From contig JAJZXT010000050.1 in NCBI GenBank assembly GCA_021806355.1, forward strand, positions 1-36,169: 36,169 nt of DNA, read 5' to 3'. Position numbers and translations under genes: made by a program. The DNA comes from Thermoplasmata archaeon (GTDB taxonomy: Archaea; Thermoplasmatota; Thermoplasmata; Thermoplasmatales; Thermoplasmataceae). Under the pieces are notes generated by a model that worked only from the letters and a program-made list of their open reading frames with translations, made no database searches and was not told where the DNA came from. Below, one piece after another: positions 14,078 through 36,116 of this stretch (positions are counted from its first letter, which is position 1; every line of letters begins with the position of its first letter).

Positions 14078-14138
14078 TGGATGGCAGGAAGGAAGAACAC
14101 TAAAGGTGAGACAAAGGGGCATCATGGCAACATTAGTT

Positions 14139-15125: not shown

Positions 15126-15286
15126 TTTCTTATTTATTTCTTATATCTTGAATTGATTAGTGCATAATTAACCAGAATTTAATCAATAAATACTTTTATT
15201 TGGTATTCATTTATTGGCATAAGAGATGATGTTCTAAGTTTAAAATAACATTGTTAAATTTAGTTTGGAAGTGGTAGTTTAAATTT

Positions 15287-16045: not shown

Positions 16046-16370
16046 AGGTTATCATTTTTTAAGTGATTTTATTCATATAAATGTATTGATATATCGTTTT
16101 TTGTTATATTTAAGTTATAATGAATTTGCATTCTGTAATTATTATTTGGGATATCATTTACCCACTATGATCCAGAGAGATCCGATAAATTCATTATTTC
16201 TTGCGTTTCAGTCGGGAAATCTCTTACGTTCAAACATGACAAAACATAGATTTTGTCATGTCATCCAGTGGGTTCCATTGGCCTCTTTATATACTAACAT
16301 CTTCGATTTTACGAAGAACTTCGCATCCAGGAAGTGAGAACGTATATAAAGTCATACGAATTGTCATGTC

Positions 16371-17003: not shown

Positions 17004-17656
17004 GGTCGTTTATGAATAATGATATTTGTTTTAATATTAAAATGGGAGATAAAGAGTCTGAACAGTTTACCATGACATGGTTTTATCGAGCAATGGCCTG
17101 CACTAGCAATATTGACACAAATTCACCTCAATATGGTGAGAGACATATAGATTTAGCAGATCGTTTTATATCCTTGTGGATTTGTTATAATTCCATATTG
17201 AGAGAATCTCATGGTGAGAGATTGAATGATAAGCAACTAATTGATGCTGCTGGAAAAGACAAAGATTGGGAAGAAATATTACAGAGAAAAATGGGAGAAC
17301 TGTGTTATTACTTGAATGAGTTAATGAAATACACGGTTAAAGATATGAAAAGTGGAAATAGCATAACGCTAAATTCTAAAGAATTCGAAAAACTAATTCA
17401 GGTGATCTATCAGATTAGATGCAACCTTTTTCACGGTAGGAAACTCCCTTATGAAGATAAGAACTCAATAGACTTCAAACTGATCAAGCTTGCACATTTG
17501 ATATTGGCACCATTGGTTACGGAATACCTTAAATCAAAGGATTTAGTAAAAATAGAGTATTGTCAAGACTATGGGAACGTAGCTGATAGTGATTTTCCAA
17601 AGCCGGTGTTAGAAATTGAAGATTTTGAGGGGGGTTTTATATTTGAATTTCGATAA
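17000..17656 (+). CDS. HEPN-domain protein (Rx4H), putative RNase effector; start moved from 16913 to 17000
   Basis: The ATG at 17000 overlaps the recombinase stop (ATGA). The motif YQIRCNLFHGRK is an R-x4-H HEPN signature in a helical context. Confidence 0.5.
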   Translation: MRSFMNNDICFNIKMGDKESEQFTMTWFYRAMACTSNIDTNSPQYGERHIDLADRFISLWICYNSILRESHGERLNDKQLIDAAGKDKDWEEILQRKMGELCYYLNELMKYTVKDMKSGNSITLNSKEFEKLIQVIYQIRCNLFHGRKLPYEDKNSIDFKLIKLAHLILAPLVTEYLKSKDLVKIEYCQDYGNVADSDFPKPVLEIEDFEGGFIFEFR

Positions 17657-17679
17657 ATACTCAGCTTAAATTATAGACG

Positions 17680-17688
17680 TTTTTTTTT
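17680..17688 (+). terminator. T9 tract, candidate archaeal terminator
   Basis: A run of nine T begins 24 nt after the TAA stop at 17654-17656. Confidence 0.4.
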
Positions 17689-17689
17689 G

Positions 17690-17935
17690 TAACAAAGAAA
17701 AGCATTGACGATGTGAGGAAAAGGCTGGATGAGATGCAGAAGAAGCTTGGAGGTTCCATTCCAAAGCTCCGAAGAGCAGTGATCCCATGAAGGACTTCTT
17801 TGTGGTTGAATTGACCCTGAAAGGGCCCAGAAAGCAGTGAGGAAGGTGGATGACATGCAGGCCATCGTTGGAGAGGATCAGGGACTCGCAGACAAGCTAG
17901 AAAAAATGAAGTTGAGGCTATCTACAATAAAATAG
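17690..17935 (+). pseudogene. decayed coiled-coil gene remnant with backbone-like GC
   Basis: Three frame-shifted pieces read SIDDVRKRLDEMQKKLGGSIPKLRRAVIP*, MKDFFVVELTLKGPRKQ* and AVRKVDDMQAIVGEDQGLADKLEKMKLRLSTIK*. The VRK.DxMQ unit is repeated. Confidence 0.3.
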
Positions 17936-17938
17936 ATT

Positions 17939-20149: not shown

Positions 20150-21855
20150 TTGAATATTCTCCTATATACGTTCAAGATAGATGCAGGTATAGGTTTTATT
20201 TCTATCAAATCAATCAAATCTGTAAACTCATCTTCTTTGTTTCCATCATCGAGAGAAAAGACATATACAATAGCTTTTTTACCAATATTTTTTAACTGAA
20301 TTTTAGCTTCCTCAATTCCATCATCATCATATATGATACAAAGCAATTTGTATTCTGCACCATTAAATATTTTATAATATTTACCATTAGATATAAGATT
20401 AAAGCAATATTCCTTGAGACAAAGCATCTCAGTTGAACTGTCAACAAGTTGCTTTTTATTACTATCAGTTTCCAGAGCCTCTACAAAATCTGTTTTAAAA
20501 TATTTCAAACTACTTTCAGAAGATTTCAATTCCTTATTTTCATCATTTCTCAATATTACAGTTTTAATTCTTGGATAGCAAACATTTTCTGCAATTAGGT
20601 TTTCATTATTGGTGCAAAGAATAAATCTCCTGTTTCCACCATCTTCTGAATTGGTTTCAACCACTGCTTGACCAGTCGTTCCAGACCCTGCAAAAAAATC
20701 TAAAACGAGTGAATCTTTTTTTCCGTTTAACCTTATCAAATGTTTAACGAGTTCAACCGGTTTAGGGTAATCAAACACTCTCGATTCTTTTCCAAAAATT
20801 GACTCTAAATCTTTCTTTCCATCTGAGGTCAATACAAAATCTATCAATGATCTTGGGACTAAGCCCTCTTTTTCAGAAAGGAATCTTTTTCTTTTCGGAG
20901 TGGAATTTCCACTCTTCCCAAACCAGACTAAGTTATCTTCTAGTAATTTTTCAAAATTTTCTTTTGTGTAAGACCACCGTTTGAGCCATTCTTTACCAGT
21001 AAGTGGGGAAATAATTTTATACAATCTTTTATTGTCAGTGTCCGACGAGGGGGCTGTTAAATCTGTTTGCGCCCAAGGACCTCGAGGATCATTGTCAGGA
21101 TTTTTATATTCTTTTTTTTGTTTTTTATTCAAAGGCTGATAAAAACGCTCCAGTTTATCCTTATTTTTCGAATAGAACAAAACATAATCATGTTGGATAA
21201 AGATTAACTTAGAATCAGCACCAGCACCAGCCTTCTTTCTCCACACAAATGTACCGATATAGTTCTTTTCATCAAATATATTATCGCATAATAATTTCAA
21301 CTGAGAAAACTCATTCTCATCTATTGAAATAAAAATGATGCCTTCTGGCTTTAACAAACTTTTTGCTAATTTAATCCTTGAGTTCATGAAAGATAACCAT
21401 TTGCTGTGTCTATATGCATCTTCTTTGTCTACTATCTTATCATTGTAGATAAAGTCACCATTGCCTAAATTATACGGAGGATCAATATATATAACATCCA
21501 CTGCACGGTCATGTGTGTAATTCAAAACAGATAAGGAATGATAGTTATCACCTTCTATTAGTATATTTAAATTATCAATATTATGCACACTAATCGATTT
21601 TTCTGTGACTTCTCTAAGAATTGGAAGAAACTCATTGCATTTTTTAACTACTTGTTCATCCTTTTCTTCCCAAACTAAACCATACCTTTTTCTCTTCCTA
21701 AGTTTCTTTATCTCATTAATTAGCTCTTCTTTGGTCCATCCATCGTAGTTATTTTCATATTTATTTGATACGGGTTCAGGTGAAGTCGTTGGGATATTAA
21801 CCTGTTCTGAGGCAATAGTTCCATCTCGTTGGTCCTTCTCCTCTAACATATTCAT
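20146..21855 (-). CDS. mod: Type III R-M Mod DNA methyltransferase (beta-class N6A/N4C)
   Basis: DVIYIDPPYN (motif IV) precedes VLDFFAGSGTTG (motif I). YGLVWEEK is present near the N-terminus. The gene order is mod then res. Confidence 0.85.
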   Translation of the reverse strand: MNMLEEKDQRDGTIASEQVNIPTTSPEPVSNKYENNYDGWTKEELINEIKKLRKRKRYGLVWEEKDEQVVKKCNEFLPILREVTEKSISVHNIDNLNILIEGDNYHSLSVLNYTHDRAVDVIYIDPPYNLGNGDFIYNDKIVDKEDAYRHSKWLSFMNSRIKLAKSLLKPEGIIFISIDENEFSQLKLLCDNIFDEKNYIGTFVWRKKAGAGADSKLIFIQHDYVLFYSKNKDKLERFYQPLNKKQKKEYKNPDNDPRGPWAQTDLTAPSSDTDNKRLYKIISPLTGKEWLKRWSYTKENFEKLLEDNLVWFGKSGNSTPKRKRFLSEKEGLVPRSLIDFVLTSDGKKDLESIFGKESRVFDYPKPVELVKHLIRLNGKKDSLVLDFFAGSGTTGQAVVETNSEDGGNRRFILCTNNENLIAENVCYPRIKTVILRNDENKELKSSESSLKYFKTDFVEALETDSNKKQLVDSSTEMLCLKEYCFNLISNGKYYKIFNGAEYKLLCIIYDDDGIEEAKIQLKNIGKKAIVYVFSLDDGNKEDEFTDLIDLIEIKPIPASILNVYRRIFK

Positions 21856-22075
21856 GCCAATAAACGATTATAGTAAAATGTTTCTATAACGTTTTAAACT
21901 ATTAAAACGACGTGCAATAAATTTTTCATAAATCATCATATCTTTAAAAATATATTAATACATATTTCTAATTTTATCCTTCTGATTTCAAAAGGCCTAT
22001 TTTACTGATAAAAGTTCATTTTTTCATTTGATGTATCTATAGACGGTTTTTTTAATACGTTATATATCAGGAGAA

Positions 22076-22282
22076 ATGGTGAAACGCAATCCATTTACAA
22101 AGGAATACTACACAGGAAGGAAAGACTAGTTTGACGTAGACTATGCAATATTCAGGAAAGCAGTAGATGAGACGGAAACCAGGGATGAAATAATAAAATA
22201 TCTTGAGGAGAAGCTACAGTTTGTCATATCGAAAATAGCTGAGACCAATTCCAGGGAACTGATGGAAGAGCTGGAACTCTGA
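22076..22282 (+). pseudogene. small ORF interrupted by an in-frame TAG
   Basis: The 68-codon frame reads MVKRNPFTKEYYTGRKD*FDVDYAIFRKAVDETETRDEIIKYLEEKLQFVISKIAETNSRELMEELEL, with the TAG at 22127-22129. Confidence 0.25.
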
Positions 22283-22423
22283 TCATCCATTTATTATTTT
22301 TACAATTTCTTTTATTTTTTCTGCTATCTGTTCTCCCTTTTCTGTCAGGGATATGAGATTTCTGTTTGGATATTTTAACTTTAATAGCAAAATAGCTTTG
22401 CACTTAAAAGATGAAAGTTGCAC
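22283..22423 (-). pseudogene. C-terminal remnant of a wHTH regulator
   Basis: The minus-strand frame reads ...ILLLKLKYPNRNLISLTEKGEQIAEKIKEIVKIING*. The wing-plus-helix pattern resembles IFLTDKGHQVAEQL and FVLSEKGEEAYKEI in 32894..33415. Only 46 codons remain after an upstream stop. Confidence 0.3.
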
Positions 22424-22429
22424 CTAAAA
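22385..22429. repeat. TTGCACYTAAA motif locus A (two direct copies 20 nt apart)
   Basis: The elements are tagcaaaat (22385-22393), gctttgcacttaaaag (22395-22410) and ttgcacctaaaa (22418-22429). Confidence 0.8.
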
Positions 22430-22696
22430 CATTATGAACGAGACCGTCAAATTATAGTTGAAATATCCAGAAGGAATGTCCATACTCCTTTGAGACAAGG
22501 TTCCCCGGATATGGTATGGAAAGCACATACCTGAAGATGTGAAAGACAAGAGTGTCAAGTTAGGGATGAAATCCTCTATCGGGAGGCATATGAAATGTGC
22601 ATGACCATCCTCGGCCTACGGGTTCAGACATGGGAGGCTCTTATGAAAACATCATCTTTGTATCATAAGGGATCAACGGAGATTTGACAGTCTCTT

Positions 22697-22894
22697 ATGA
22701 ACAAAAATTTTAAGTACATCTTAGTGAATACTTGTTGGATGGGGTCTGGAGTGGATGATTTCAAGTGCGCCAAGTGTGGATATTATACTGGGTCACCAGA
22801 TGAGGCGCGTAATCACCACAATCCAATCACTGGGCACATTATGCAATATTACTCCATTTCAAAGCAAAAGTGGGAAAATGCATTCATGGACTGA
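22697..22894 (+). CDS. small C2H2-like zinc-finger protein (doubtful)
   Basis: 65 aa with FKCAKCGYYTGSPDEARNHHNPITGH. It is isolated in a degenerate intergenic stretch. Confidence 0.3.
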   Translation: MNKNFKYILVNTCWMGSGVDDFKCAKCGYYTGSPDEARNHHNPITGHIMQYYSISKQKWENAFMD

Positions 22895-22979
22895 ATCTCT
22901 CACTGGTGTTTTGCATCAATATTCTAGTCTGGCTGTCAAGCATTTTACCGATATTGGGTAGCCCAGTAATGGAATCAAC

Positions 22980-25718
22980 TCACTTCATGGAATTCATCAA
23001 TAGTTCTCTTATTCTTTTATGAGGCTCCCCCAGAAGCTCTTCAACAACCTCCAAGTTGTCATAAAATGACACAAATAACTCTTGTTCTTCTATTGGGGGT
23101 ATATCGATTCTTGCCTTATCAAAAAAGTCCGTCATATTCCATGTGCCGTTGTCAGAACTTGAAGAGTATTCAAGAAAGAGATTGCGATACTCGTAAAATA
23201 ACCATTTGAGATTGATCTTGTAATCTACACGTTCACTCTGAGTGACTTCGGAAGACTTCTTGAGAAACAACAGATATGCGTCGTCGTTTATTGTATAATC
23301 TCCTGTTTCAAAGAATGTAGTAAATCCTGCTTTTCCCTTCCTAACTACGTGAATAACTTGTTTTCCCTCTGTCACCGTAATGTATTTCGACGCATCCTTA
23401 GGATGAGGACACTTATGAATATACATAGTTTCATCAAAAACGGTACTTCCGGTTAAAATTAGATACTTTCGTTCTTTGTTAATCTTTATCTGAGAATACC
23501 GATATTCCTCTGTTAAACCAGAATTTCCACTCATGTACCCTAGAACTTCTCCAATGGGGACCTCCAAGCCTTGAAATGCTGAGAAATCCCTATTAGTAAT
23601 CATCACCTTAATTCTTTCTAACTGAGTATGTAACTGGGAGAAATCAACGTTTGAGATCGATTTCATTTGTTTCTCAACTGTATCGAGTTTATTCTTCCAT
23701 TGGTTCATCGGCATAAGTCCTGCTTCAGCAGGGCGCATGTAATACTCTGGAAGAAGACAATAGTTTGCTGCCGGCTCTTGAATGGTTGACATCTTAATGA
23801 ATCCACCTTTTCTGAGTTTTATTCCCTTTCCCTTTTCATCAATCCACTCAGTTCCAGAAGTTAAACTATCATCGAATTTCTTCCATCTTTCCTCAAGGAG
23901 TCCTGGCATTTCTTCTCCATCAGTGCTTACCCATCCTGAAATTTCGTCGTGCATCCAACCATTTCGATTATTCCGTAACTTTGTGGGAAACCTTTTGTCA
24001 GAATTGGCTAGGCCATCATTGTCTAAAATATACATCCAAATTGGTTCGGTTTGCATTCTTGTTTGGTTATCTGCCTTTTTCTTGAAGAACACCGCATACA
24101 TTTTTTCCTTAGTGTAGGGTGCAAATGCAAATTTAGGAAGGGAGATAATTGCTTCTATAGCGCATTTTTCAAGAAAATTACTTCTTAGCTTAACAAAAGA
24201 TGGATTCTCCAACACACCATCAGGGAGTAGGACGCATGCCTTGCCATTCACTTTCAAAAGGTTGATGATTCTATAGAGGAATGCAATCTCGTTGCGAAAG
24301 GATGCTATGGCCGTTGTATCGGCTTTTACAGTCCCAGCGCCTACAGGTGGATTAGTGAGGATATAATCCCATTTTTCATCGTCCTTGAACTTGTGTCTAA
24401 GAGAATCTCTTGAATACATATGTGTATGGCCGTCTCCAACAAGAAACATGTTCAATTTTGTCCGCCAAATGTTTTCCGGCCTAACGTCGAAGCCATAAAA
24501 GCAGCTTTCTTCTAGGAATCTAAGTGCTTCCTCATCCAAGGATAAATTCTTGCTGTAAGCATTGTACAACACTTTGAAACTTTCTGTCAAAAATCCTCCT
24601 GTTCCACACGCTGGGTCTAGAACTTTAAATTCCCTCTTACCGTCATAATATGTCTCATCTTTTAGTAACAGTTTTGCGAAAATATGCGTATAGTGTCTTC
24701 TAGTGAAATACTCACCGAAGTCCTTTTTCTCATTCTTGCTTGCAAACTTTTCATACACAGCCCCGAACAGATCAAACCCACAACCATGTAAAGGTTTCAT
24801 GGAATCGATAATATCGTATATGCTCTTCACATCCTCAGTTGTCACTATAGGCTTTGTCTTTTCTGTTCCCACTATGGCGATTCTGACTTTCTCCATTAGG
24901 GTAGAAAATTCCTCAAATTGGGAATTCTGCTCTAATCTCTGAATGTATTTGGACAAAGATGCCACAACTTCTTCTGATTTCTTGGATTGACAATCAGTCC
25001 AATATATTCTTGTAGCATCTTTGGTACCCCTCAAATTTTCTCTTTCTTCAAAATACTCCAAAGATATGAAACCTATTGTAAAGTCGATCTTTTGAACGCC
25101 ATTTTCGAAACTAATGTTTCTATAGACCTTAGCAAGTTCCCAAAGCCTATTAGCAAAAACCGCCTCAGATATAAGTGCTAGAGAATCAACATTTGTAACT
25201 ATATTCTCAAGCTCTGGTTTTTGGGTGAGTTGATTTTTTACTAGACGGAGCACGTCTATAGTTTGGAAGGTGCGAATTGGGTTTCCGTTTAGCCTAATCT
25301 CATTCCTAGTCTTTACATTGTAAAAAATACTTGTCTTGCAATTGGTTACTATAAAGAATGGTAATTTGAGTTTTGGTGCTTTGTCAAATCCTTGTTTGAT
25401 TGCATCCTTCCAATCAGCATCACCTACAACGCTTTCATCCTTTGCTTCTGCATATGCGACAAGATTCTCTATGAACTGGGTTTCATTCTTTGTGATCTGA
25501 TCATACTCAAATTCAGATACGAGTAAATCAGGCCTCTTGAGGAACGTGTATTTCGAAAAAGTAGTATCGTTCACGATTTGTCTAAGAGGTATACTCAACT
25601 GACTGACCAGAACCTCATTAATGAATCTTTGAACAGTTAGAGCCTCCTCTTTCTTCTTTTTTCGTTTTGGTTCAAATTCTGGCTGCTCAATAAGCCTTTT
25701 CTGAATGGCCAATTCCAT
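22980..25718 (-). CDS. Type IIG-like fused restriction-modification enzyme (N-terminal HsdR_N-type nuclease, gamma-class N6-adenine MTase, C-terminal target-recognition region)
   Basis: The N-terminus has RPDLLV...LVAYAEAKDES...FFIVTNCK (D...ExK). MTase motifs are GEYFTRRHYTHIFAKLL and VLDPACGTGGFL (motif I) and ILTNPPVGAG (motif IV variant). The C-terminal 300 aa are HsdS-like (LEVPIGEVLGYMSGNSGLTE). No helicase motifs are present. Confidence 0.7.
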   Translation of the reverse strand: MELAIQKRLIEQPEFEPKRKKKKEEALTVQRFINEVLVSQLSIPLRQIVNDTTFSKYTFLKRPDLLVSEFEYDQITKNETQFIENLVAYAEAKDESVVGDADWKDAIKQGFDKAPKLKLPFFIVTNCKTSIFYNVKTRNEIRLNGNPIRTFQTIDVLRLVKNQLTQKPELENIVTNVDSLALISEAVFANRLWELAKVYRNISFENGVQKIDFTIGFISLEYFEERENLRGTKDATRIYWTDCQSKKSEEVVASLSKYIQRLEQNSQFEEFSTLMEKVRIAIVGTEKTKPIVTTEDVKSIYDIIDSMKPLHGCGFDLFGAVYEKFASKNEKKDFGEYFTRRHYTHIFAKLLLKDETYYDGKREFKVLDPACGTGGFLTESFKVLYNAYSKNLSLDEEALRFLEESCFYGFDVRPENIWRTKLNMFLVGDGHTHMYSRDSLRHKFKDDEKWDYILTNPPVGAGTVKADTTAIASFRNEIAFLYRIINLLKVNGKACVLLPDGVLENPSFVKLRSNFLEKCAIEAIISLPKFAFAPYTKEKMYAVFFKKKADNQTRMQTEPIWMYILDNDGLANSDKRFPTKLRNNRNGWMHDEISGWVSTDGEEMPGLLEERWKKFDDSLTSGTEWIDEKGKGIKLRKGGFIKMSTIQEPAANYCLLPEYYMRPAEAGLMPMNQWKNKLDTVEKQMKSISNVDFSQLHTQLERIKVMITNRDFSAFQGLEVPIGEVLGYMSGNSGLTEEYRYSQIKINKERKYLILTGSTVFDETMYIHKCPHPKDASKYITVTEGKQVIHVVRKGKAGFTTFFETGDYTINDDAYLLFLKKSSEVTQSERVDYKINLKWLFYEYRNLFLEYSSSSDNGTWNMTDFFDKARIDIPPIEEQELFVSFYDNLEVVEELLGEPHKRIRELLMNSMK

Positions 25719-25924
25719 TATTCCTCCTTGACCTTTTCTAATTCACCCCTTATTACTCTAACAATCAATACTTCTCTTTTCTCGGGGTCAAAATCCCATG
25801 TAAGCATATCATTAGTGGTTAGGTGGAGCGTCTTCACAATAAATGAAGGTACTGTAGTTCTTATTGAGTCGCTCTGTGTTTTTGCCGCTACCAATTTTGT
25901 CGTCTCACCTTTCATTCTTGGCAT
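25718..25924 (-). CDS. AbrB/SpoVT-family DNA-binding protein (possible controller of the R-M gene)
   Basis: 68 aa with IRTTVPSFIVKTLHLTTNDMLTWDFD, typical of the swapped-hairpin domain. Its stop overlaps the R-M start by 1 nt. Confidence 0.6.
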   Translation of the reverse strand: MPRMKGETTKLVAAKTQSDSIRTTVPSFIVKTLHLTTNDMLTWDFDPEKREVLIVRVIRGELEKVKEE

Positions 25925-26056: not shown

Positions 26057-27317
26057 TAACCAATGAGCATTGATGAAGGGAGAGAGCAAAGAGGCGAAGA
26101 AATCGCCAAGTCTGGAAAACTGAAACAGGAAGGCAATCACTGGATAGTGCCTTCTCAGAGTGGGCATGGGAATTACATTGTTAGCATGAAGGGGAAAGAA
26201 CCGATCTGCACATGCCCTGATTTTGAAAGCAGAAATGTAAGGTGCAAACACATCATAGCGGTTGAACTTACAATAGCGCATAATAAGAATCCAACGGAAA
26301 CACCAGCCATAGAAGGCGTTAAGAAGGTAACATATTCACAGGCATGGTCTGCCTATAATGCAGCACAGAGCGAGGAAGTAAAGCTGTTTGATGCACTTCT
26401 CAGCGACCTAGTATCAGGGGTTGAAGAACCAGAACAGACAAGAGGAAGGCCCAGACTGCCCTTGAAGGATGAACTTTTCTGCGCAATACAGAAAGTGTAT
26501 TCACAGCTTTCAAGCAGGAGATCGGCATCACTTTTTGGATTTGCGGAATCCAGAGATCACATATCACATGCCCCGCATTTCAATGTTTCTTCGAAAGTGC
26601 TGAACAGAGAAGACATAACGCTAATATTACAGAATCTTCTTTCCCAGACCGCATCGCCACTCATGGAGATCGAAACAAAATTTGCAACCGACAGTTCAGG
26701 CTTCAGGACTACCAACTTTAATGAGTACGCTGAAGAGAAATACAACTTAAAAAGGGAGCATGGATGGATCAAGGCGCATATCACCGTCGGGGTTAGAACA
26801 AACATAATCACCGCTCTCAATGTTACAGAGAACAAAGGTAAAGGTTCGGCGGACATTAACCACTTCAAGCCCCTCATTCTAAGGACAAAAGAGCTTGGGT
26901 TTACTGTTGAAGAGGCATCGGCGGACAAGGCGTATCTTTCAAGGTCAAATCTGGCATTGATTGATGAAATGGGTGGCGTTCCATACATACCATTCAAGAG
27001 CAATACTCATGGCAGGCCGATGGGAAATCATATCTGGAGAAAGATGTATGCAATCTTCCTTTACCGCAAGGAAGAATTTGAGGAGCATTACCACCTTCGA
27101 TCCAACGTGGAGACGACATTCTCTGCCTGGAAACTGAAACTTGGAGATTCCTTGAAAAGCAAGAACCTGACTGCACAGAAGAATGAGCTTATCTGTAAAG
27201 CAATTGCTTACAACATAACCGTGCTGATACATGAAATGTTTGAGTTGGGCATTAAGCCGGACTTCATCCCTGAACCCCTAGCTATCTTCCTATAAGTTGG
27301 AGTGGAAATCTACCTCT
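26048..27317 (+). mobile_element. putative IS element (boundaries tentative)
   Basis: A 10-bp inverted repeat agaggtagat (26048-26057) / atctacctct (27308-27317) brackets the transposase gene. No clear target-site duplication is visible. Confidence 0.3.
26063..27295 (+). CDS. transposase with N-terminal SWIM zinc finger and DDE (IS4/IS5-like) catalytic domain
   Basis: The SWIM finger is CTCPDFESRNVRCKH (CxC..CxH). The DDE-like signatures are ATDSSGF, ASADKAY and RSNVETTFSAWKLK. GC is higher than in the flanks. Confidence 0.8.
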   Translation: MSIDEGREQRGEEIAKSGKLKQEGNHWIVPSQSGHGNYIVSMKGKEPICTCPDFESRNVRCKHIIAVELTIAHNKNPTETPAIEGVKKVTYSQAWSAYNAAQSEEVKLFDALLSDLVSGVEEPEQTRGRPRLPLKDELFCAIQKVYSQLSSRRSASLFGFAESRDHISHAPHFNVSSKVLNREDITLILQNLLSQTASPLMEIETKFATDSSGFRTTNFNEYAEEKYNLKREHGWIKAHITVGVRTNIITALNVTENKGKGSADINHFKPLILRTKELGFTVEEASADKAYLSRSNLALIDEMGGVPYIPFKSNTHGRPMGNHIWRKMYAIFLYRKEEFEEHYHLRSNVETTFSAWKLKLGDSLKSKNLTAQKNELICKAIAYNITVLIHEMFELGIKPDFIPEPLAIFL

Positions 27318-27365: not shown

Positions 27366-27758
27366 CTAGCGTTTTGCTATGAATGTTTTAAGTGTTGTTT
27401 GAATGTCATTTTTTTGCTTGATTACCCATTCTCTGAATCTTGGATTTAACCGATATTCTTGTTTGTCCTTTATAACTTCCACGAGACCAGCTTCAAAAGA
27501 GGAGTTGAGGCCGTATTCAATTGCAGGATCAGTTCCATCGTAGCCCAATTCTCTAGCTTTTGCCACAATTTTCTTCAACTCAACATATCTTTCCTCATCT
27601 TTTGAATCAAAGATTTGAATCAACGAAAGCAGTGAGTAAAGTCTGGAAAACTTAGTTCCTTTAACCCCTTCTCTAAACATGTAGTTGATGATATCATTTG
27701 CGTAGTGTTTCTTGAGTTCTTTTATGTAGCCTGTATCCCAATCTTCTGGATTTGACAT
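27366..27758 (-). CDS. hypothetical protein
   Basis: 130-aa ORF with an AT-rich TATA-like stretch about 22-32 nt upstream of the ATG. The TTGCACYTAAA repeats lie further upstream. Confidence 0.5.
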   Translation of the reverse strand: MSNPEDWDTGYIKELKKHYANDIINYMFREGVKGTKFSRLYSLLSLIQIFDSKDEERYVELKKIVAKARELGYDGTDPAIEYGLNSSFEAGLVEVIKDKQEYRLNPRFREWVIKQKNDIQTTLKTFIAKR

Positions 27759-27912: not shown

Positions 27913-29166
27913 CTATATGGAACTCATCATTTTATTCTTGAAAACCCAAGTATTATGATACCCTCTTCTCTTATTCCTATTTGTGCCCCGAAAGATCATG
28001 ACATCAATACCATGTTCCTGACAAATTTCACATTCGCAATTTTCCCAAGGTTTATGTTCCAGAGTTTTCCTGTACTTTACTTTAATATTTTCTATATTTT
28101 CAGAATTCCTCATTAATAGTTTGTCATATTCAATTACAGAGGAAAGGGCAGTATCAATGCCAAGTTTTCCGTCAGAGTATCTTAATAAAGAATCATAGGC
28201 CTGCGTTTCCAAATTTTCTAAATCCTGAAGAGAAATATTTGAATCATTTGCATTTTTTATTAGATTTTTATTCCATGAGAATGGAACCCTTATGGCAGAG
28301 TACCAAACACCTTCCTGGGATAGATAATTCTGCCCGGATCTTAACCATGCTTTTCTGAAATATGATGCACTATCAAAACTGGTGACTCCCAATTTTTCGA
28401 AGTTTGTAATGTGTCCTGGACGCATAACACCAAAAAGATGCAGCTTTTTGCCTTCCATGTATGGTGTAACTTTATGAAGAATCTTTAACAATTCAAGGTT
28501 ACTATATTGAACTAAACCACCGAGGGCCAAATATTCATAACCTTGGGAGACCAATGAAATAACACTCTCAATATAGGACTTTGGGCTGTAACCTTGGGCA
28601 ACTCCGATTGCCTTAAAAGAATAATGTTTCTCCTTTACTAAATTTATGAATTCCTCGGAGTTCTGCACAGTCAGCATTCTTCTTCTTTCTCTTTCTTTGG
28701 TTGATAATTTTACATATTTCTTCTTTCCTTCCTCTTTAAAACGGATAAATCCCACAGCAATGTGATCCGGGCTTACTCCAAAATCAAATTTAAATTCATG
28801 GTACATCTCTGCAACGTGATGTACAGAATAAAATGGTGGTGGATTGTGATGGGCAACATAACTGAATGCACCACAGTCACCCATTACCTTCAATCTTGAG
28901 TATTTCTGGATTTTCAAATAATCCCGGATATTTTTTTTATTTCTAATCATGGGCTGGTTTTGTTCATCATATTTTATTTTCAGTTTAGTCTGAAAGTTGC
29001 TTAAGCTAAAGAGTATACCATCATATGGTTGCTTTTTCTTGTATATCTGATGTGCATAATAATCGTTTTCATAAGGACTTATTTCATGAGATTCTGAATA
29101 AGAATCATTTGTGAAATCAAATTCAGGATCTACCCGATCTTCCCAGTTTGGCATATAGAACTTCAT
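27913..29166 (-). CDS. TGT-family (queuine/archaeosine tRNA-ribosyltransferase fold) protein, DpdA-like candidate DNA transglycosylase
   Basis: GDCGAFS corresponds to the DSGGFQ catalytic Asp region, and YEYLALGGL to the GGLxxGE region. LHLFGVMRPGHI...GVTSFDSASYFRKAWLRSG corresponds to HLLGVGxP...GVDxFDxxxPTRxAR. CECEICQEHG...GYHNTW is the CxCxxC...H zinc site. The protein is 417 aa with no C-terminal extension. Confidence 0.8.
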   Translation of the reverse strand: MKFYMPNWEDRVDPEFDFTNDSYSESHEISPYENDYYAHQIYKKKQPYDGILFSLSNFQTKLKIKYDEQNQPMIRNKKNIRDYLKIQKYSRLKVMGDCGAFSYVAHHNPPPFYSVHHVAEMYHEFKFDFGVSPDHIAVGFIRFKEEGKKKYVKLSTKERERRRMLTVQNSEEFINLVKEKHYSFKAIGVAQGYSPKSYIESVISLVSQGYEYLALGGLVQYSNLELLKILHKVTPYMEGKKLHLFGVMRPGHITNFEKLGVTSFDSASYFRKAWLRSGQNYLSQEGVWYSAIRVPFSWNKNLIKNANDSNISLQDLENLETQAYDSLLRYSDGKLGIDTALSSVIEYDKLLMRNSENIENIKVKYRKTLEHKPWENCECEICQEHGIDVMIFRGTNRNKRRGYHNTWVFKNKMMSSI

Positions 29167-29224: not shown

Positions 29225-29692
29225 TCAGGAAGTGACAGAAGCCAACCACATTTTTAAATTGTGCAACCTCACCCCAATGGTTCCATATCCATATTTAATA
29301 TTCAGCTCTTTGAATAGGGGATTGTCAAAACCTATCGCATTTCTGTACGTTTTTCCAAGTTCTATGTATATTTCACTGTATGTTGAAGATTGTAGAATAC
29401 TTACTAATCTGTCTGTTGTTTGATTCTTCATCTCTTGGGCAATGTGATCATTCATTTTTTGTTCATAAACTGAAATTTTATGATTGGCAAAAATTAATCC
29501 GTATTTTGCAGATAAAATGAGAATATCAATCTTATCTGTAGGATACTTTCTAATGATTCTGTAACTCGGGCCATCATATACCTGCAAGGCTGGCTGATCC
29601 TTAAGATCACGTTTTGTGGCAGAACATGAAATCAGCAATAATTTCCTTGGAGTTATCTTTTCAGATACACTTTCAATTTGAGCCTGCAACAT
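29225..29692 (-). CDS. small uncharacterised protein of the TGT-helicase operon (possibly DUF6884/YaaA-like)
   Basis: 155 aa with the segments LLLISCSATKR, ALQVYDGPSYR and ILILSAKYGLI. The family assignment is from memory only. It is 6 nt from the nuclease gene and 58 nt from the TGT-like gene. Confidence 0.5.
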   Translation of the reverse strand: MLQAQIESVSEKITPRKLLLISCSATKRDLKDQPALQVYDGPSYRIIRKYPTDKIDILILSAKYGLIFANHKISVYEQKMNDHIAQEMKNQTTDRLVSILQSSTYSEIYIELGKTYRNAIGFDNPLFKELNIKYGYGTIGVRLHNLKMWLASVTS

Positions 29693-30643: not shown

Positions 30644-32890
30644 CTAAATTTCAATTGTGTTTCCAAAAACAGTCCAATTGCTGTCTCCACCGAATCCCAC
30701 TCCTGGTCTCGTATACTCCGTTCTTTTTGCCAATAAAATGAGAGCGTATTGTGCTCTGGAATAGGCAACAAAGAACCGCCTAACAAGATCCTGTTTAACT
30801 TTTTGTTCTGTCGTAAATCTTGTTGATGAATTATTCGAATTTCTGGAGAACTTGGCAAAATCGCTTTCCATTTGGACAGATGCCATATCAACTATGGCTG
30901 AAGATAAACCATAGACAAAAACTAAAGGAAATTCCAAGCCTTTTGATTGATGAATGGTCATAATCGGAACTCTTCCTCGTGGGAAATTCTCTATCTCATC
31001 CTCAGCCTCATTGAGACCTTCTGAAGCCAAGAGTCCCAATAAAGAGTAGTAAAAATTTTTCCTCCAAGTGAAACTTATTCCTTGGTTGACATTACTGCTG
31101 GTATACAAAAATCCCAACATATTCTTTGTGTTTTTGGAGTTTGGTACATTCGAATACGCATCAAGCACATTGCACACGACCCCTATTCTCGTAGATCTTT
31201 CGGGATCATCAATCCAATCTGAAAGGGGTGGAAAATTCAGCAGATCGTAAAAAATTTCCAGAAGATTCACTCCGACAGATGTACTTGGGCCCATTCTCAA
31301 TATGGAATTTGCATAACTTGTCACATAATCTCTAAGATCTTTATTATTAGCTGCAACCCTATCAAATTCCCCTCTCCATTCGTCACATATTTCTCTGATT
31401 GCAGGAAATTTTACGGCTCTTTGAGCAGTTGAAGAGGGGTCAATAATTTTAAGCAGACCCCCAAGAATAACTTTGATCTCCTCCTGTTCAAGCAACCCTT
31501 TTGATCTTGGGTTGTAATACGGGATGTTGTGATTTTCCAAAGCGTCCATGAATGGACCAGCTTTATATTTACTTCTCTTAGTACTGTGAAGGAGAAGAAC
31601 ACATTCTGAATAATCATGTATCAACTGTTTGTCAAGCAGATATTCCAACATGTTTGCGAAGAATTCGGCGACCTCATCTGCATTTTTTCCTCTATGAATA
31701 GCTACTGGTGGGTAAGATCCGTTAATGGCAGAACCTGCAGTTAAGGGAGGTTTTCCCCGAACTCTTGCCCCCGGGAGGCTCATTTCTTGGAAAGATCTCA
31801 TATATCCATCATAAAAAGTTATAATTCCGGGATTGGATCTATAGTTTGTAGATAAGAATACACTAGTTATCTCTGGTATTTTCCATTTTTGTTGGCATGA
31901 ATTTTCAAAATTCACCATGCAATCAACGGTACCTCCCCTAAATCTGTAAAGAGCCTGATCATCATCACCTACAACACATAGATTCTTGCTATTCTCTGCA
32001 AGCTTGAAATATATTTCTTCCTGTATTTGGTTTGTGTCTTGATACTCATCAACAAGAACATGCTTGACGCCAGGATACTGATCTGTTCCGTCGCCATACA
32101 GAAAGAGACTTGATTGCTGGCTTTTCAAAAAATCTAGGAATTTAAGTTGGACATGAGCAAAATCGCATCTGTAGTTGTCAAACAATTTATTTCTATATTC
32201 TTCATATGCTTTAACTAAAGTTTCCCAAGACCCTCCCTCTGCATACATTGCATTGGTATCCAATCGGTCTTCTACAATTCTGTTAAAAAGTTTAGAAAGT
32301 CCTTTGGTTTTAATATTTCTGTTTGGTGGTCTGCCGGAGTTTGGATTCCATATACTTGTGGTCAATGGATCGAAAATAGCAAAAACATACGGAAACCCTG
32401 GCCATAAATCATCATAGTTTTGAGACACAGTACTATCTAAACTGGTTGAAGAGGAATGTTCAATTATAAACAATCTCTGTTCGATGTCATCCAGTAATCT
32501 ATAATTTTGATAACCTGTGAATCTAAACTCTTGCATTCTATCATTACACAGACCATGCAGGGTATCAACCCTTATCCTGTTGTATACAATAGTCTCTAAT
32601 GACTTGTCTATAGCAATTAAATACTGCATATATTGGGAAATTCTGGTCTGTAGATTGTTAGCTGCTTTTTCTGTAAAGGTAGTTAATATGATGCTCGCAG
32701 GTGAAACCTTATCAACCACAAGCAATTTCAAACATCGGAATACAATGGAATCGGTTTTACCAGAACCTGGACCTGCGATAACCCATAATGGGCCATCTCC
32801 ATGACTAATGACAATTTTTTGGTTATTGTCCAATCGAAATCCTCTTCCTGGAATGGCCTCAATAGCATTAATAAAGTCGTCAAGATTCAT
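30644..32890 (-). CDS. UvrD/Rep-family SF1 DNA helicase
   Basis: All seven motifs are present: AGPGSGKT (I), TFTEKAANNL (Ia), VLVDEYQDTN (II), VVGDDDQALYRFRGG (III), STNYRSNPG (IV), TIHQSKGLEFPLVF (V) and FVAYSRAQYAL (VI). Confidence 0.9.
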   Translation of the reverse strand: MNLDDFINAIEAIPGRGFRLDNNQKIVISHGDGPLWVIAGPGSGKTDSIVFRCLKLLVVDKVSPASIILTTFTEKAANNLQTRISQYMQYLIAIDKSLETIVYNRIRVDTLHGLCNDRMQEFRFTGYQNYRLLDDIEQRLFIIEHSSSTSLDSTVSQNYDDLWPGFPYVFAIFDPLTTSIWNPNSGRPPNRNIKTKGLSKLFNRIVEDRLDTNAMYAEGGSWETLVKAYEEYRNKLFDNYRCDFAHVQLKFLDFLKSQQSSLFLYGDGTDQYPGVKHVLVDEYQDTNQIQEEIYFKLAENSKNLCVVGDDDQALYRFRGGTVDCMVNFENSCQQKWKIPEITSVFLSTNYRSNPGIITFYDGYMRSFQEMSLPGARVRGKPPLTAGSAINGSYPPVAIHRGKNADEVAEFFANMLEYLLDKQLIHDYSECVLLLHSTKRSKYKAGPFMDALENHNIPYYNPRSKGLLEQEEIKVILGGLLKIIDPSSTAQRAVKFPAIREICDEWRGEFDRVAANNKDLRDYVTSYANSILRMGPSTSVGVNLLEIFYDLLNFPPLSDWIDDPERSTRIGVVCNVLDAYSNVPNSKNTKNMLGFLYTSSNVNQGISFTWRKNFYYSLLGLLASEGLNEAEDEIENFPRGRVPIMTIHQSKGLEFPLVFVYGLSSAIVDMASVQMESDFAKFSRNSNNSSTRFTTEQKVKQDLVRRFFVAYSRAQYALILLAKRTEYTRPGVGFGGDSNWTVFGNTIEI

Positions 32891-32893
32891 TTT

Positions 32894-33415
32894 TCACCTC
32901 TTTATTTTTCCTTCCAATATCCTTATTTCTTTGTATGCTTCCTCTCCTTTCTCGCTTAATACAAAATAGTTCTCAGGAGGATATGACTCGTTGTCAACCT
33001 CTGACCTCACGAGTTTCATTTCTTCAAGCTCCTTGATATCGTCATAGGATCCTGGGATCTCTTCTTTAATTTGGCCCACAGTTAATTTCCCCCTATCTCC
33101 CAGTAGCATTATGATGAGCTGTTGCCTTGAGAAAAAAGACTTCTTAAAAGTCCCCTTCGCTGCGAGTTCTGCATTCAGGAGCTGTTCTGCTACCTGATGG
33201 CCCTTGTCTGTTAAGAAAATATCATAAGTTCTTCTTCCCTTTATTGTCTCTTCTATTGTCAAATATCCCAGTACTGATAACTTATCTATAGATTTTGACC
33301 AAGTAGTCCAGCTATCTTCTTTAGTTATAATATCAGATTTCTTGCCCTTTCCCCCTTTATTTAATAATCTAATTAAAATTGTATTGGCATAAGGAATGTC
33401 AAGAGCATCTCCCAT
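32894..33415 (-). CDS. tandem winged-helix (MarR/TrmB-like) DNA-binding protein, first gene of the operon
   Basis: There are two wHTH-like units (ILIRLLNKGG...LGYLTIEE...YDIFLTDKGHQVAEQL and IIMLLGDRGKLTVGQI...MKLVRSE...YFVLSEKGEEAYKEI). The stop is 3 nt before the helicase start. Confidence 0.6.
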   Translation of the reverse strand: MGDALDIPYANTILIRLLNKGGKGKKSDIITKEDSWTTWSKSIDKLSVLGYLTIEETIKGRRTYDIFLTDKGHQVAEQLLNAELAAKGTFKKSFFSRQQLIIMLLGDRGKLTVGQIKEEIPGSYDDIKELEEMKLVRSEVDNESYPPENYFVLSEKGEEAYKEIRILEGKIKR

Positions 33416-34704: not shown

Positions 34705-35117
34705 TCCAGGAGTTCTCCATTGATGAGGAGACTATGAAATATCTCGAGTTCCTCAATATGAAGTATAGGGAAGTGGTACATTTCCTTGGAGAGAAGGATG
34801 GTTCGCTTGACCTTGTAAAAGTCCAGTTGTTCTTTGAGAGAATTGTATCACATTTCGCACCTGATGTCACCAGTCTCAATGAAGTTAATATTGAAAAAAA
34901 GGTGGATGCCCGGGAAATGGCCCCAGACGAGAGGAAAAGCTTCCTTGATGCATTGGTCAGGAACAAAAAATACAGCCTCCAGAAGATGGGGGACGGGTAC
35001 ATCGTGAGGGCTAATCTGGCCGATGATAGGATGAAAGAACTCGTGGAGAAGATGGGACAGGCAGGATTCAAATACGAGACTGGAAAGGGATTTGTGGAGG
35101 TTGGAATAGATGAATAA
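34701..35117 (+). CDS. hypothetical protein
   Basis: 138 aa with an ATGA overlap upstream. It overlaps the integrase start by 8 nt. Confidence 0.55.
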   Translation: MIQEFSIDEETMKYLEFLNMKYREVVHFLGEKDGSLDLVKVQLFFERIVSHFAPDVTSLNEVNIEKKVDAREMAPDERKSFLDALVRNKKYSLQKMGDGYIVRANLADDRMKELVEKMGQAGFKYETGKGFVEVGIDE

Positions 35118-36081
35118 GGATCAGTTGGAAACATACATATCGGAGTTCCAGGAATGGGCCCTTTTCGAAGGGACATATTCCATGAGCACCATTAAGAGGG
35201 ATTCCAGAAAGATAAGAGAACTTTCAGGGAAATTTGATATCATGAACCCCACAATTGAGAATGTAAGGAATTATTTCCTGGACAAGCTCCATGAGGGAAA
35301 GATACAGAGATCCACATTGAATGTCACCAGGAAGGCCCTGATGAAGTGGTTCCGCTTCCTGAAGCAGAGGCATGGCTTTGCAGTTGAGATCAAGATCCCG
35401 AAGCAGCCTGAGAAAAGGAGGGCAATTTCATGGATACCAACCAACGAGGAGGTAAAGAGGATCATTCAGGCTGCTGACACACAATCCAACAGGGAAGTTG
35501 CAGCAAGGGATGGGGCAGTCATGAGGCTTCTGTTCTCCGGGGGCCTGAGGATAGGCGAGGTCGTGAAGCTGAATCTCCAGGACATGAGATCTTCCGGAAT
35601 ATTTGTGCATTCTGAAAAGGGAGGGGAAGATGGCGTCGTGGGCCTTTCTGATGACTGCATTACCAGCATCCAGAAATATCTCCTATACAGGAGAGGGACA
35701 GATCCTTCTGCACTCTTCACATCAGCAGCTGGAAGGGTATCGTATGAGTACCTGAGGCAGCACATATCCAATCTGGGCAAGCAGGTGGCCCCAAGCTGGC
35801 ACCCACATGCTGCAAGGCACTGGGTTGCTACCTTCCTGCTTGCAGGGGATCAGGAGAATGGAATCGAACCTCTGGATATACGTTATGTGCAAACCCAGCT
35901 ACGCCATGCGTCATTATCAAGCACTCAGATATACACCCATGTCAACAGGGATGACCTTGCAAACAGCGTGAATAAGAGGCTCAGCAAATTTTTTCGTGAG
36001 GAAAGAAATATGATAAAAATGATGAACCCGGATAAAATTGAGCGGGTCTGGAGGGGTTCGAACCCCCGGCCTATGGATTAA
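35110..36081 (+). CDS. int: tyrosine integrase (full length, XerC/D-like fold)
   Basis: Catalytic motifs are GGLRIGEVVKL (Arg I), HPHAARHWVAT (HxxR) and LRHASLSSTQIYTH (His, Tyr). An N-terminal core-binding region is present. The last 13 codons are encoded by tRNA-Lys sequence. Confidence 0.85.
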   Translation: MNKDQLETYISEFQEWALFEGTYSMSTIKRDSRKIRELSGKFDIMNPTIENVRNYFLDKLHEGKIQRSTLNVTRKALMKWFRFLKQRHGFAVEIKIPKQPEKRRAISWIPTNEEVKRIIQAADTQSNREVAARDGAVMRLLFSGGLRIGEVVKLNLQDMRSSGIFVHSEKGGEDGVVGLSDDCITSIQKYLLYRRGTDPSALFTSAAGRVSYEYLRQHISNLGKQVAPSWHPHAARHWVATFLLAGDQENGIEPLDIRYVQTQLRHASLSSTQIYTHVNRDDLANSVNKRLSKFFREERNMIKMMNPDKIERVWRGSNPRPMD

Positions 36082-36116
36082 GAGTCCATCGCTCTACCTG
36101 GCTAAGCTACAGACCC
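36043..36116 (-). tRNA. tRNA-Lys (anticodon CUU), CCA not encoded
   Basis: The hand-folded cloverleaf has acceptor GGGTCTG/CAGACCC, D stem GCTT/GAGC, anticodon stem ATGGA/TCCAT with loop CTCTTAA, T stem GGGGG/CCCTC and T loop TTCGAAC. Confidence 0.85.

What the first reader, a model, noticed from the sequence alone, without database searches (positions are those of the whole stretch)
27913..29166. The TGT-like protein is a stand-alone catalytic barrel with no room for tRNA-recognition domains
The ORF ends about 35 aa after the zinc-site histidine (CECEICQEHG...GYHNTWVFKNKMMSSI). Archaeal tRNA-guanine transglycosylase carries large C-terminal domains, including a PUA domain, that bind tRNA. 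The Pyrococcus enzyme is roughly 580 aa. There is no space for such domains here.

Instead there is an N-terminal stretch of about 95 aa (MKFYMPNWEDRVDPEFDF...) before the GDCGAF catalytic region, with no motif I recognise. A housekeeping arcTGT would also not be expected on an AT-rich accessory island inside a mobile element.
Basis: partly seen in the sequence, partly recalled or inferred. Interest (0 to 1): 0.6.

Follow-up and report, generated by a model that had tools for sequence, protein, structure and literature searches.

The report
Archaeal DpdA in DpdB-less cassette
The gene encodes a complete member of the known DpdA family, enzymes that swap guanine in DNA (not tRNA) for a 7-deazaguanine base. 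The protein is ordinary, but it sits in a compact four-gene cassette that lacks the usual helper DpdB, and I could not find that cassette described.

Summary

Both catalytic aspartates (D97, D265) and the zinc site (C377, C379, C382, H404) are conserved. No PUA or C1-C3 domains are present.

- The zinc histidine is H404, 13 residues from the end, not H385.
- The N-terminal 95 residues are strands 1-3 of the barrel plus the DpdA-specific insertions Ins1 and Ins2, not an extra domain.

The host, a Thermoplasmataceae MAG, has its own 623-aa arcTGT with C2 and PUA domains, plus QueC, QueD and an ArcS-like gene.

DpdB is absent from the assembly. DpdA sits in an operon with a short DUF6884 (DpdC/ArcS-like) protein, a Cas4-like nuclease and a UvrD helicase. 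This cassette recurs in about 70 archaeal and bacterial loci, often with DUF6884 fused to DpdA. I found no paper describing it.

This scan had already met the same cassette type in three other genomes.

The parts
27913..29166 (-). dpdA: DNA-guanine transglycosylase (preQ0 insertase), 417 aa. Catalytic D97 (acid/base) and D265 (nucleophile); D134, Q191 and W274 in the pocket; zinc site C377/C379/C382/H404.
29225..29692 (-). Short DUF6884 protein (155 aa) with the CxxxK (CSATK, residue 23) and LSAxxG (LSAKYG, residue 60) motifs. It is a distant relative of DpdC, YaaA and the ArcS core domain, and the constant partner of this DpdA clade.
   Evidence: Pfam DUF6884 E 3.7e-13. PADLOC PDC-M57A 5e-11, DpdC 2e-4. 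hhalign to two bona fide DpdC sequences: probability 87%, E 4e-6. AF2 pLDDT 95. Foldseek hits 2Q07 and YaaA 5CAJ. DUF5591 matches in 9 of 26 orthologues. Present in 70 of 76 related loci, fused to DpdA in 42. Motifs as in PMC11701544.
29699..30634 (-). PD-(D/E)XK, Cas4-like nuclease (311 aa)
   Evidence: Pfam PDDEXK_1 E 7.7e-16. Weak Cas4 matches. Found next to UvrD in 43 of 76 related loci.
30644..32890 (-). UvrD/Rep-family helicase (748 aa)
   Evidence: Pfam UvrD-helicase E 4.2e-50 and UvrD_C. Found in 59 of 76 related loci.
32894..33415 (-). Weak winged-helix protein (173 aa), first gene of the operon, 3 nt from UvrD. Possible regulator; not part of the conserved core.
   Evidence: Sub-threshold PadR/HTH_34 hits. 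Homologues in only 5 ORFs of the related loci. Gene gaps of 3, 9, 6 and 58 nt.
27366..27758 (-). 130-aa ORF downstream of dpdA, no family match, not conserved. Probably not part of the system.
   Evidence: No Pfam hit. No homologue in any related locus.

Best explanation
The ORF encodes a bacterial-type DpdA, a monomeric TIM-barrel DNA-guanine transglycosylase.

By homology with Salmonella DpdA, it binds duplex DNA on the surface built by its insertions Ins1 and Ins8 and flips out a target guanine. [quoted passage not shown] The intermediate is then resolved with free preQ0 (7-cyano-7-deazaguanine), leaving dPreQ0 in the DNA. The preQ0 comes from the host's own archaeosine pathway; QueC, QueD, arcTGT and an ArcS-like gene are present elsewhere in the genome.

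I infer that the adjacent short DUF6884 protein, a relative of DpdC and of the ArcS core, acts on the inserted base. The most likely reaction is conversion of its nitrile to an amide (dADG) or a related derivative.

I infer that the co-transcribed UvrD helicase and Cas4-like nuclease form the effector that attacks DNA lacking the mark. That would make the four genes a stripped-down Dpd-type restriction-modification cassette that works without DpdB.

Status of each step:
- Shown here: family membership, fold, catalytic and zinc residues, absence of tRNA domains, a separate housekeeping arcTGT, and conserved gene linkage.
- Inferred: DNA as the substrate, preQ0 as the base, the partner's chemistry, and the defence role.
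For: Family and fold:
- NF041059 scores 409 bits against a cut-off of 200, over residues 1-414.

Residues:
- D97, D134, D265, W274, C377, C379, C382 and H404 align to Sm D95, D130, D256, F265, C368, C370, C373 and H395. All eight window residues are invariant in 30 homologues.
- The roles of the Salmonella residues are from PMC10164549.

Host supply:
- arcTGT 623 aa, QueC, QueD and an ArcS-like DUF5591 gene.

7-deazaguanine link for this clade:
- QueC lies next to DpdA in 12 related loci, and the Vut_1-family transporter (YhhQ-type preQ0 transporter) in 10.

Linkage:
- The cassette is seen in five metagenomic loci in three gene orders and different flanks.
- Among 76 loci, 70 have DUF6884, 59 have UvrD, and 42 have all three partners.
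- DUF6884 is fused to DpdA at either end in 42 loci.

Partner:
- hhalign to DpdC gives probability 87%.
- DUF5591 (ArcS core) matches occur in 9 of 26 members.
- Stand-alone DUF5591 proteins of viruses (ArcS2) are reported to accompany dG+ or dCDG in viral DNA (PMC10516641).
Against: - No biochemical or modification data exist for this clade.
- In Salmonella, DpdA needs the ATPase DpdB to insert preQ0 (PMC10164549). No DpdB or DndB homologue is found in this assembly, which is 88% complete, so activity without a helper is assumed rather than shown.
- The partner is only a distant relative of DpdC (PADLOC E 2e-4) and half its length, so its chemistry is uncertain.
- Q191 replaces Salmonella H181 in the pocket.
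- The related loci were retrieved with peptide patterns taken from this clade and annotated with a crude ORF caller, so the tallies describe this clade only.
I can report only an overall pI of 9.0 and basic clusters in Ins2, the 140-155 hairpin and the last helix.
Confidence: 0.7

Rival explanations
1. Anti-restriction for the mobile element. As in phages, DpdA would modify the element's own DNA so that it escapes the restriction enzymes of new hosts, rather than marking host DNA for a defence system.
For: The gene lies in a low-GC stretch of a contig that ends in an integrase overlapping tRNA-Lys. Phage DpdAs protect phage DNA from restriction (PMC6884629). A relative in a Thermoplasmatales contig also lies near an integrase (L012).
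Against: The constant partners are a helicase and a nuclease (UvrD with PD-(D/E)XK, or HerA with NurA), which is the signature of an effector module. In a Methanoperedens contig the cassette lies between metabolic genes such as UbiD and AcnX, with no viral genes. Only one of 50,697 phage records holds a homologue, at 34% identity. The neighbours here are other defence genes: AbiV, Type III and Type IIG R-M.
Confidence: 0.12
2. The helicase stands in for DpdB. UvrD (or HerA in sister cassettes) would be the ATP-driven partner that opens DNA for DpdA, so the four genes would form a modification machine and restriction would lie elsewhere or be absent.
For: DpdB's ATPase is essential in Salmonella but is absent here. 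It is also absent from 3 of 5 complete genomes that carry the cassette, and lies more than 60 kb away in the other two. An ATPase-nuclease pair is nearly always present, and the two alternative pairs both contain a translocase.
Against: Phage DpdAs, which have no DpdB, are reported as essential for inserting the base into phage DNA (PMC6884629). Some loci of this clade show neither helicase within five genes (4 of the 79 rows in the tree). A nuclease has no obvious role in a pure modification machine.
Confidence: 0.12
3. A second tRNA-guanine transglycosylase that modifies tRNA at another position. Thermoplasma tRNAs carry archaeosine at position 13 as well as at the usual position 15.
For: The protein belongs to the TGT superfamily (Pfam TGT E 3.8e-10). 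The host is a Thermoplasmataceae archaeon, and archaeosine at position 13 is reported in Thermoplasma acidophilum (PMC5699537).
Against: There are no PUA, C1 or C2 domains. The arcTGT model scores 24 bits against a cut-off of 350. The match to the DNA enzyme 7UI4 is far better than to any tRNA TGT. The gene is missing from 400 other genomes sampled from the phylum, including the same genus and family. It sits in an operon with DNA enzymes.
Confidence: 0.03
4. A DNA repair module. DpdA and DUF6884 would recognise damaged bases, and UvrD with the nuclease would excise them.
For: The DUF6884 member YfjM of B. subtilis was found among proteins that interact with DNA lesions and was proposed as a repair factor (PMC11701544). 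UvrD and Cas4-like nucleases are repair-type enzymes.
Against: Distribution is sporadic and island-borne. The cassette is linked to QueC and the preQ0 transporter. It lies in a defence island. The transglycosylase active site, including the covalent nucleophile, is fully conserved.
Confidence: 0.03

Closest known systems
Salmonella enterica serovar Montevideo DpdA (PDB 7UI4) and the Dpd system (dpdA-K)
   Different: About 31-34% identity. No DpdB anywhere in the assembly. No DpdD-K; the linked effector genes are a UvrD helicase and a Cas4-like nuclease. The DpdC-like partner is half the size and only distantly related. Gln replaces His181. The host is an archaeon. In a tree, 71 cassette-type DpdAs group apart from three DpdB-linked plasmid DpdAs (SH-aLRT 92). 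That tree includes only six reference sequences (three DpdB-linked, three long cyanobacterial/Paenibacillus), and the root was set on the three DpdB-linked ones.
Archaeal tRNA-guanine transglycosylase (arcTGT/TgtA), for example Pyrococcus horikoshii 1IT8 and the host's own copy at L001:622-2493
   Same: TIM-barrel transglycosylase core, zinc site, and preQ0 as substrate.
   Different: arcTGT has C1, C2 and PUA domains (623 aa in this host) and an N-terminal beta-sheet lid, and it acts on tRNA G15. The window protein lacks all of these and scores 24 bits against a cut-off of 350 on TIGR00432.
Bacterial TGT (Zymomonas mobilis, for example 1P0B)
   Different: 14-15% identity. The superposition starts at bTGT residue 42, so its N-terminal region has no counterpart here. 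[quoted passage not shown] The insertions differ, it acts as a homodimer (PMC5699537), and it targets tRNA position 34 with preQ1.
Phage and virus DpdA1-DpdA4
   Same: DNA transglycosylases that work without DpdB.
   Different: They belong to different subfamilies. Only one phage record matched at E below 1e-5, at 34% identity. Phage enzymes serve to evade restriction and are not linked to helicase-nuclease pairs.
DpdC (DUF328-like) and ArcS2 (stand-alone DUF5591), the nearest known relatives of the DUF6884 partner
   Same: Shared fold and the LSAxxG-type motif. Both known enzymes act on the nitrile of preQ0 that is already in a nucleic acid.
   Different: The partner is 155 aa against about 300 for DpdC. 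It matches DpdC models only at E 2e-4. Which product it makes, if any, is unknown.

Membership tests
DpdA (NCBIfam NF041059, DNA-guanine transglycosylase) | Full-length match to the family model above the curated cut-off | tested here: met
   409.2 bits against a cut-off of 200; residues 1-414 on model positions 1-404 of 406. PADLOC DpdA E 4e-116.
DpdA (NCBIfam NF041059, DNA-guanine transglycosylase) | TIM barrel with the DpdA-specific insertions Ins1, Ins2 and the enlarged Ins8, and no N-terminal lid, as in 7UI4 | tested here: met
DpdA (NCBIfam NF041059, DNA-guanine transglycosylase) | Catalytic aspartates (Sm D95 acid/base, D256 nucleophile) | tested here: met
   D97 and D265 align to them and are invariant in 30 homologues.
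DpdA (NCBIfam NF041059, DNA-guanine transglycosylase) | Structural zinc site CXCX2C...H | tested here: met
   C377, C379, C382 and H404, with the same spacing as Sm C368/C370/C373/H395. All are invariant.
DpdA (NCBIfam NF041059, DNA-guanine transglycosylase) | Inserts preQ0 into DNA rather than tRNA | not testable with these tools
   Inferred only from homology and from linkage to DNA enzymes, QueC and the Vut_1-family (YhhQ-type) transporter.
Canonical Dpd system (dpdA-K) | DpdB (ParB/DndB-like ATPase) encoded with DpdA | tested here: not met
   No NF041060 or PF14072 match in the whole assembly, which is 88% complete. None beside DpdA in the related loci. Absent from 3 of 5 complete genomes that carry the cassette.
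Canonical Dpd system (dpdA-K) | DpdC (about 300 aa) that converts dPreQ0 to dADG | tested here: inconclusive
   The 155-aa DUF6884 neighbour matches DpdC models at only E 2e-4. hhalign to two true DpdC sequences gives probability 87%, E 4e-6, over 93 columns.
Canonical Dpd system (dpdA-K) | Restriction genes dpdD-K | tested here: inconclusive
   The PADLOC scan of the neighbours listed no DpdD-K models. The nuclease matched only Cas4 and DruK (all six hits shown). For the helicase, only the best 25 of its 48 matching families were shown (RTasHel, GajB), so a weak DpdE/F/J match cannot be excluded.
Archaeal tRNA-guanine transglycosylase (TIGR00432) | Match above the curated cut-off, plus C1, C2 and PUA domains | tested here: not met
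   24.4 bits against a cut-off of 350. No TGT_C2 or PUA in Pfam. The host's real arcTGT has both.

The most novel reading that the evidence does not exclude
The DpdA clade that includes this gene would define a distinct, undescribed minimal 7-deazaguanine restriction-modification system. It consists of DpdA plus an obligatory DUF6884 finishing enzyme (separate or fused), no DpdB, and an interchangeable translocase-nuclease effector (UvrD with a Cas4-like nuclease, or HerA with NurA). The system is spread by horizontal transfer across archaea and bacteria. If it is active here, the chromosomal DNA of an archaeon would carry 7-deazaguanine marks drawn from its own archaeosine pathway.
Probability: 0.45. 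Interest if true: 0.6.

Novelty: new variant of a known kind. Interest (0 to 1): 0.4.

Why it matters
The protein adds nothing new. The stand-alone barrel, the DNA-binding insertions and the missing PUA domain were described for DpdA with the 7UI4 structure, and NCBIfam's curated DpdA model (NF041059) scores it far above its cut-off.

The context is what is of some value:
- A four-gene, DpdB-free cassette would be a much simpler model than the eleven-gene Salmonella island. It could be used to ask how a TIM-barrel enzyme reaches a base inside duplex DNA without a helper ATPase.
- It could show what the DUF6884 family does.
- It could show how a deazaguanine mark is read by a helicase-nuclease pair.
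- In none of the papers I could search did I find 7-deazaguanine reported in the chromosomal DNA of an archaeon, so it offers a way to test for that.

Tried and rejected
- A hidden tRNA-binding or PUA domain in the N-terminus: rejected (Pfam; full alignment to DpdA).
- This gene as the housekeeping arcTGT: rejected, because a canonical copy exists.
- DpdB elsewhere in the genome: not found. The NF041060 search had no positive control genome. The PF14072 search did ring in two controls.
- SSU rRNA for taxonomy: not in the assembly. Taxonomy was taken instead from the name carried by the arcTGT cluster.
- Look-up of the Methanocaldococcus homologue P0025: not on record.
- NCBIfam has no DpdC model, so one search gave nothing. 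PADLOC was used instead.
- A profile of the DUF6884 partner against PDB sequences: nothing significant.
- Literature searches covered DpdA with DUF6884, UvrD, HerA, Cas4 or archaea, and PDC-M57. None found a description of this cassette. The 2016 PNAS paper and the 2018 Mol Microbiol paper on Dpd are not held, so an earlier mention there cannot be excluded. One review states that DpdB is present in 92% of genomes with dpdA, and a 2026 paper notes that DpdB may be dispensable in some clusters.
- Electrostatics and groove width of the model: not done, because coordinates are not exposed to scripts. Only the charge distribution along the sequence was examined.

Full report
**Observation.** The ORF is exactly as stated: 27913..29166 on the minus strand, 417 aa, ATG start. 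Pfam sees a single TGT domain at residues 157-385 and nothing else. The motif GDCGAF begins at residue 96, so 95 residues precede it. The protein ends 13 residues after H404.

**What it is.** The protein matches the NCBIfam equivalog model for DpdA (NF041059) at 409.2 bits against a cut-off of 200. The match runs from residue 1 to 414. The arcTGT equivalog TIGR00432 scores only 24.4 bits against a cut-off of 350. PADLOC's DpdA model gives E 4e-116.

Among solved structures, the one strong sequence match is 7UI4, the Salmonella Montevideo 'DNA-guanine transglycosylase', at E 3.6e-72 over residues 1-414. An AlphaFold2 model built on 30 homologues (mean pLDDT 88.8, pTM 0.85) finds 7UI4 as the top Foldseek hit (TM 0.83/0.84, E 3.5e-33). 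tRNA TGTs reach TM of about 0.42.

**Residues.** From the printed alignment and the residue numbering in PMC10164549:

| Window residue | Salmonella residue | Role |
|---|---|---|
| D97 | D95 | general acid/base |
| D265 | D256 | nucleophile |
| D134 | D130 | pocket |
| W274 | F265 | pocket |
| C377, C379, C382, H404 | C368, C370, C373, H395 | zinc ligands |

All of these window residues are invariant in an alignment of 30 homologues. The positions were checked by script.

That residue is not invariant, and the true ligand is H404.

One difference from Salmonella is Q191 in place of H181. Bacterial TGT also has Gln at that position.

**The N-terminal 95 residues.** They are not an extra domain. 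In the Salmonella structure this region is strand 1, Ins1 (residues 16-36), strand 2, Ins2 (54-68) and strand 3. [quoted passage not shown]

The window protein aligns through this whole region. It has 16 invariant residues there. The model places strands at 2-5, 50-54 and 93-97.

I could not compute an electrostatic surface. The protein has a pI of 9.0, with basic clusters in the Ins2 region, a hairpin at 140-155 and the last helix.

**The host and its own enzyme.** The window is a whole contig (C180) of a 1.75-Mb assembly that is 88% complete. Contig C133 carries a 623-aa protein with TGT, TGT_C2 and PUA domains. It scores 500.8 bits on TIGR00432. Its 90%-identity cluster includes a record named Thermoplasmataceae archaeon.

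QueC and QueD lie together on contig C32, and an ArcS-like DUF5591 gene lies on C8. The host therefore appears to make preQ0 for archaeosine, which would give DpdA its substrate.

DpdA was found in none of 400 other genomes sampled from the phylum, including the same genus and family.

**Surroundings.** The gene is the fifth of six co-directional genes, separated by gaps of 3, 9, 6, 58 and 154 nt:

1. A weak winged-helix protein.
2. A UvrD helicase.
3. A PD-(D/E)XK, Cas4-like nuclease.
4. A 155-aa DUF6884 protein.
5. DpdA.
6. An unconserved 130-aa ORF.

Around the operon lie an IS element, a Type IIG-like methylase-nuclease, a Type III R-M pair and an AbiV protein. GC content is low across this stretch. 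The contig ends in an integrase that overlaps tRNA-Lys.

No DpdB was found: NF041060 and the DndB Pfam model find nothing in the assembly.

**Is the linkage real?** Close and distant homologues from metagenomes carry the same four genes in three different orders and with different flanks. One sits between metabolic genes in a Methanoperedens contig.

A scan of species-representative genomes returned 80 loci from many archaeal and bacterial phyla. I called ORFs crudely and classified them with profiles built from the window's proteins. Among 76 non-redundant loci:

- 70 had DUF6884: 30 with a separate gene and 42 with a fusion to DpdA (two loci have both). In the fusions the domain lies at the DpdA N-terminus in 38 and at the C-terminus in 4.
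- 59 had UvrD.
- 43 had the nuclease.
- 42 had all three partners.

A HerA-like ATPase in 16 loci, and with it a NurA-like nuclease in 12, accompanies or replaces the UvrD pair. QueC lies beside DpdA in 12 loci and the Vut_1-family (YhhQ-type) preQ0 transporter in 10.

In 3 of 5 complete genomes with the cassette there is no DndB-family gene at all. In the other two it lies more than 60 kb away.

A quick maximum-likelihood tree groups 71 cassette-type DpdAs together (SH-aLRT 92). They separate from three DpdB-linked plasmid DpdAs and from three long cyanobacterial and Paenibacillus ones. The window falls in a mostly archaeal group of 18 (SH-aLRT 96).

Caveats:
- The loci were fished with peptide patterns from this clade.
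- Only six reference sequences (three DpdB-linked, three long forms) were included in the tree.
- The root was set by choice.

**The partner.** The 155-aa protein carries both DUF6884 signature motifs, CSATK and LSAKYG (motifs from PMC11701544). True DpdC proteins from Enterobacter and Agrobacterium plasmids match PADLOC DpdC models strongly and PDC-M57A weakly. The window protein does the reverse.

A profile comparison links the two at probability 87%, E 4e-6, across the LSAxxG region. The model (pLDDT 95) hits AF0587 (2Q07) and E. coli YaaA (5CAJ) at borderline E-values.

Nine of 26 orthologues also match DUF5591. That domain is called the catalytic core of archaeosine synthase and is found alone in viruses as ArcS2 (PMC10516641).

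DpdC converts preQ0 in DNA to the amide. ArcS acts on preQ0 in tRNA, and the virus form ArcS2 is proposed to do so in DNA. I therefore infer that the partner finishes the inserted base, without being able to say which product it makes.

**Mechanism and rivals.** The best reading is a stripped-down Dpd-type system:

1. DpdA inserts host-made preQ0 into DNA.
2. The DUF6884 protein modifies it.
3. UvrD and the Cas4-like nuclease act on unmarked DNA.

The main uncertainty is how DpdA works without DpdB, whose ATPase is essential in Salmonella. Phage DpdAs are the precedent for working without it. Alternatively, the helicase could supply that role.

The other rivals are self-protection of the mobile element, a second tRNA enzyme, and a repair module. 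Each fits the data less well, as set out in the rivals section.

**Novelty.** The protein and its architecture are already known. The cassette is a variant of the Dpd kind that fails the DpdB test; I also saw no DpdD-K genes, although only the best 25 of the helicase's 48 PADLOC matches were listed. I found no description of it in the papers I could search, but two key Dpd papers are not held.

Earlier follow-ups in this scan reached the same reading for three other genomes. I saw them only after forming mine.

Noticed in passing
window 26063-27295 (+); compare L004:5412-8459: A SWIM plus DDE transposase gene, and the 912-aa Type IIG-like gene at 22980-25718, lie between the DpdA operon and the Type III R-M pair. 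In the 89%-identical relative L004, DpdA is followed by a 194-aa ORF and then directly by the Type III res and mod genes. The IS and Type IIG segment therefore looks like a later insertion.
   Followed up: partly
L028:5531-7306, L032:6430-8052 and about 14 other loci: In some bacterial members of this DpdA clade, mostly Poribacteria and Aquificota, a HerA-like ATPase and a NurA-like nuclease sit upstream of DpdA. They occur instead of, or together with, the UvrD and PD-(D/E)XK pair, which suggests an exchangeable effector module.
   Followed up: partly
window 29225-29692 (-) and alignment A2: The DUF6884 partner family gives weak but repeated matches to DUF5591, the core domain of archaeosine synthase (9 of 26 members, best E 2.6e-6). 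Its model's top Foldseek hit is AF0587 (2Q07). DUF6884, DUF328/YaaA/DpdC and DUF5591/ArcS may be one superfamily of enzymes that act on bases in nucleic acids.
   Followed up: partly
L099:1074-3149, L100:8158-10227, L104:753-2849: Plasmid DpdAs of about 690 aa in Picosynechococcus, Paenibacillus and Allocoleopsis carry an N-terminal DUF6884/DpdC-like domain (residues about 35-170). In L099 and L100 a second, short TGT-like gene lies downstream (L099:6159-7082, L100:11209-12132). I did not examine its role.
   Followed up: no
window 27913-29166, residue 191: Gln replaces the active-site His181 of Salmonella DpdA and is invariant in this clade. Bacterial tRNA TGT also has Gln at the aligned position. 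This might bear on base specificity.
   Followed up: no
window 35110-36116: A tyrosine-recombinase gene (35110-36081, +) overlaps a tRNA-Lys(CTT) gene (36042-36116, -) at the contig end. This is consistent with an integrated element whose attachment site is in the tRNA.
   Followed up: partly
window 14100-25800: Several other defence-type genes lie upstream: an AbiV-type HEPN protein (15287-16045), a Type III restriction subunit (17939-20149) and methylase (20146-21855), and a 912-aa N6-methylase fusion (22980-25718). Together they form a multi-system defence island.
   Followed up: partly
phage record MT835580.1, 34181-35437: A single unannotated 'Bacteriophage sp.' record from human faecal samples encodes a full-length homologue at 34% identity. 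It was the only hit in 50,697 phage records.
   Followed up: no
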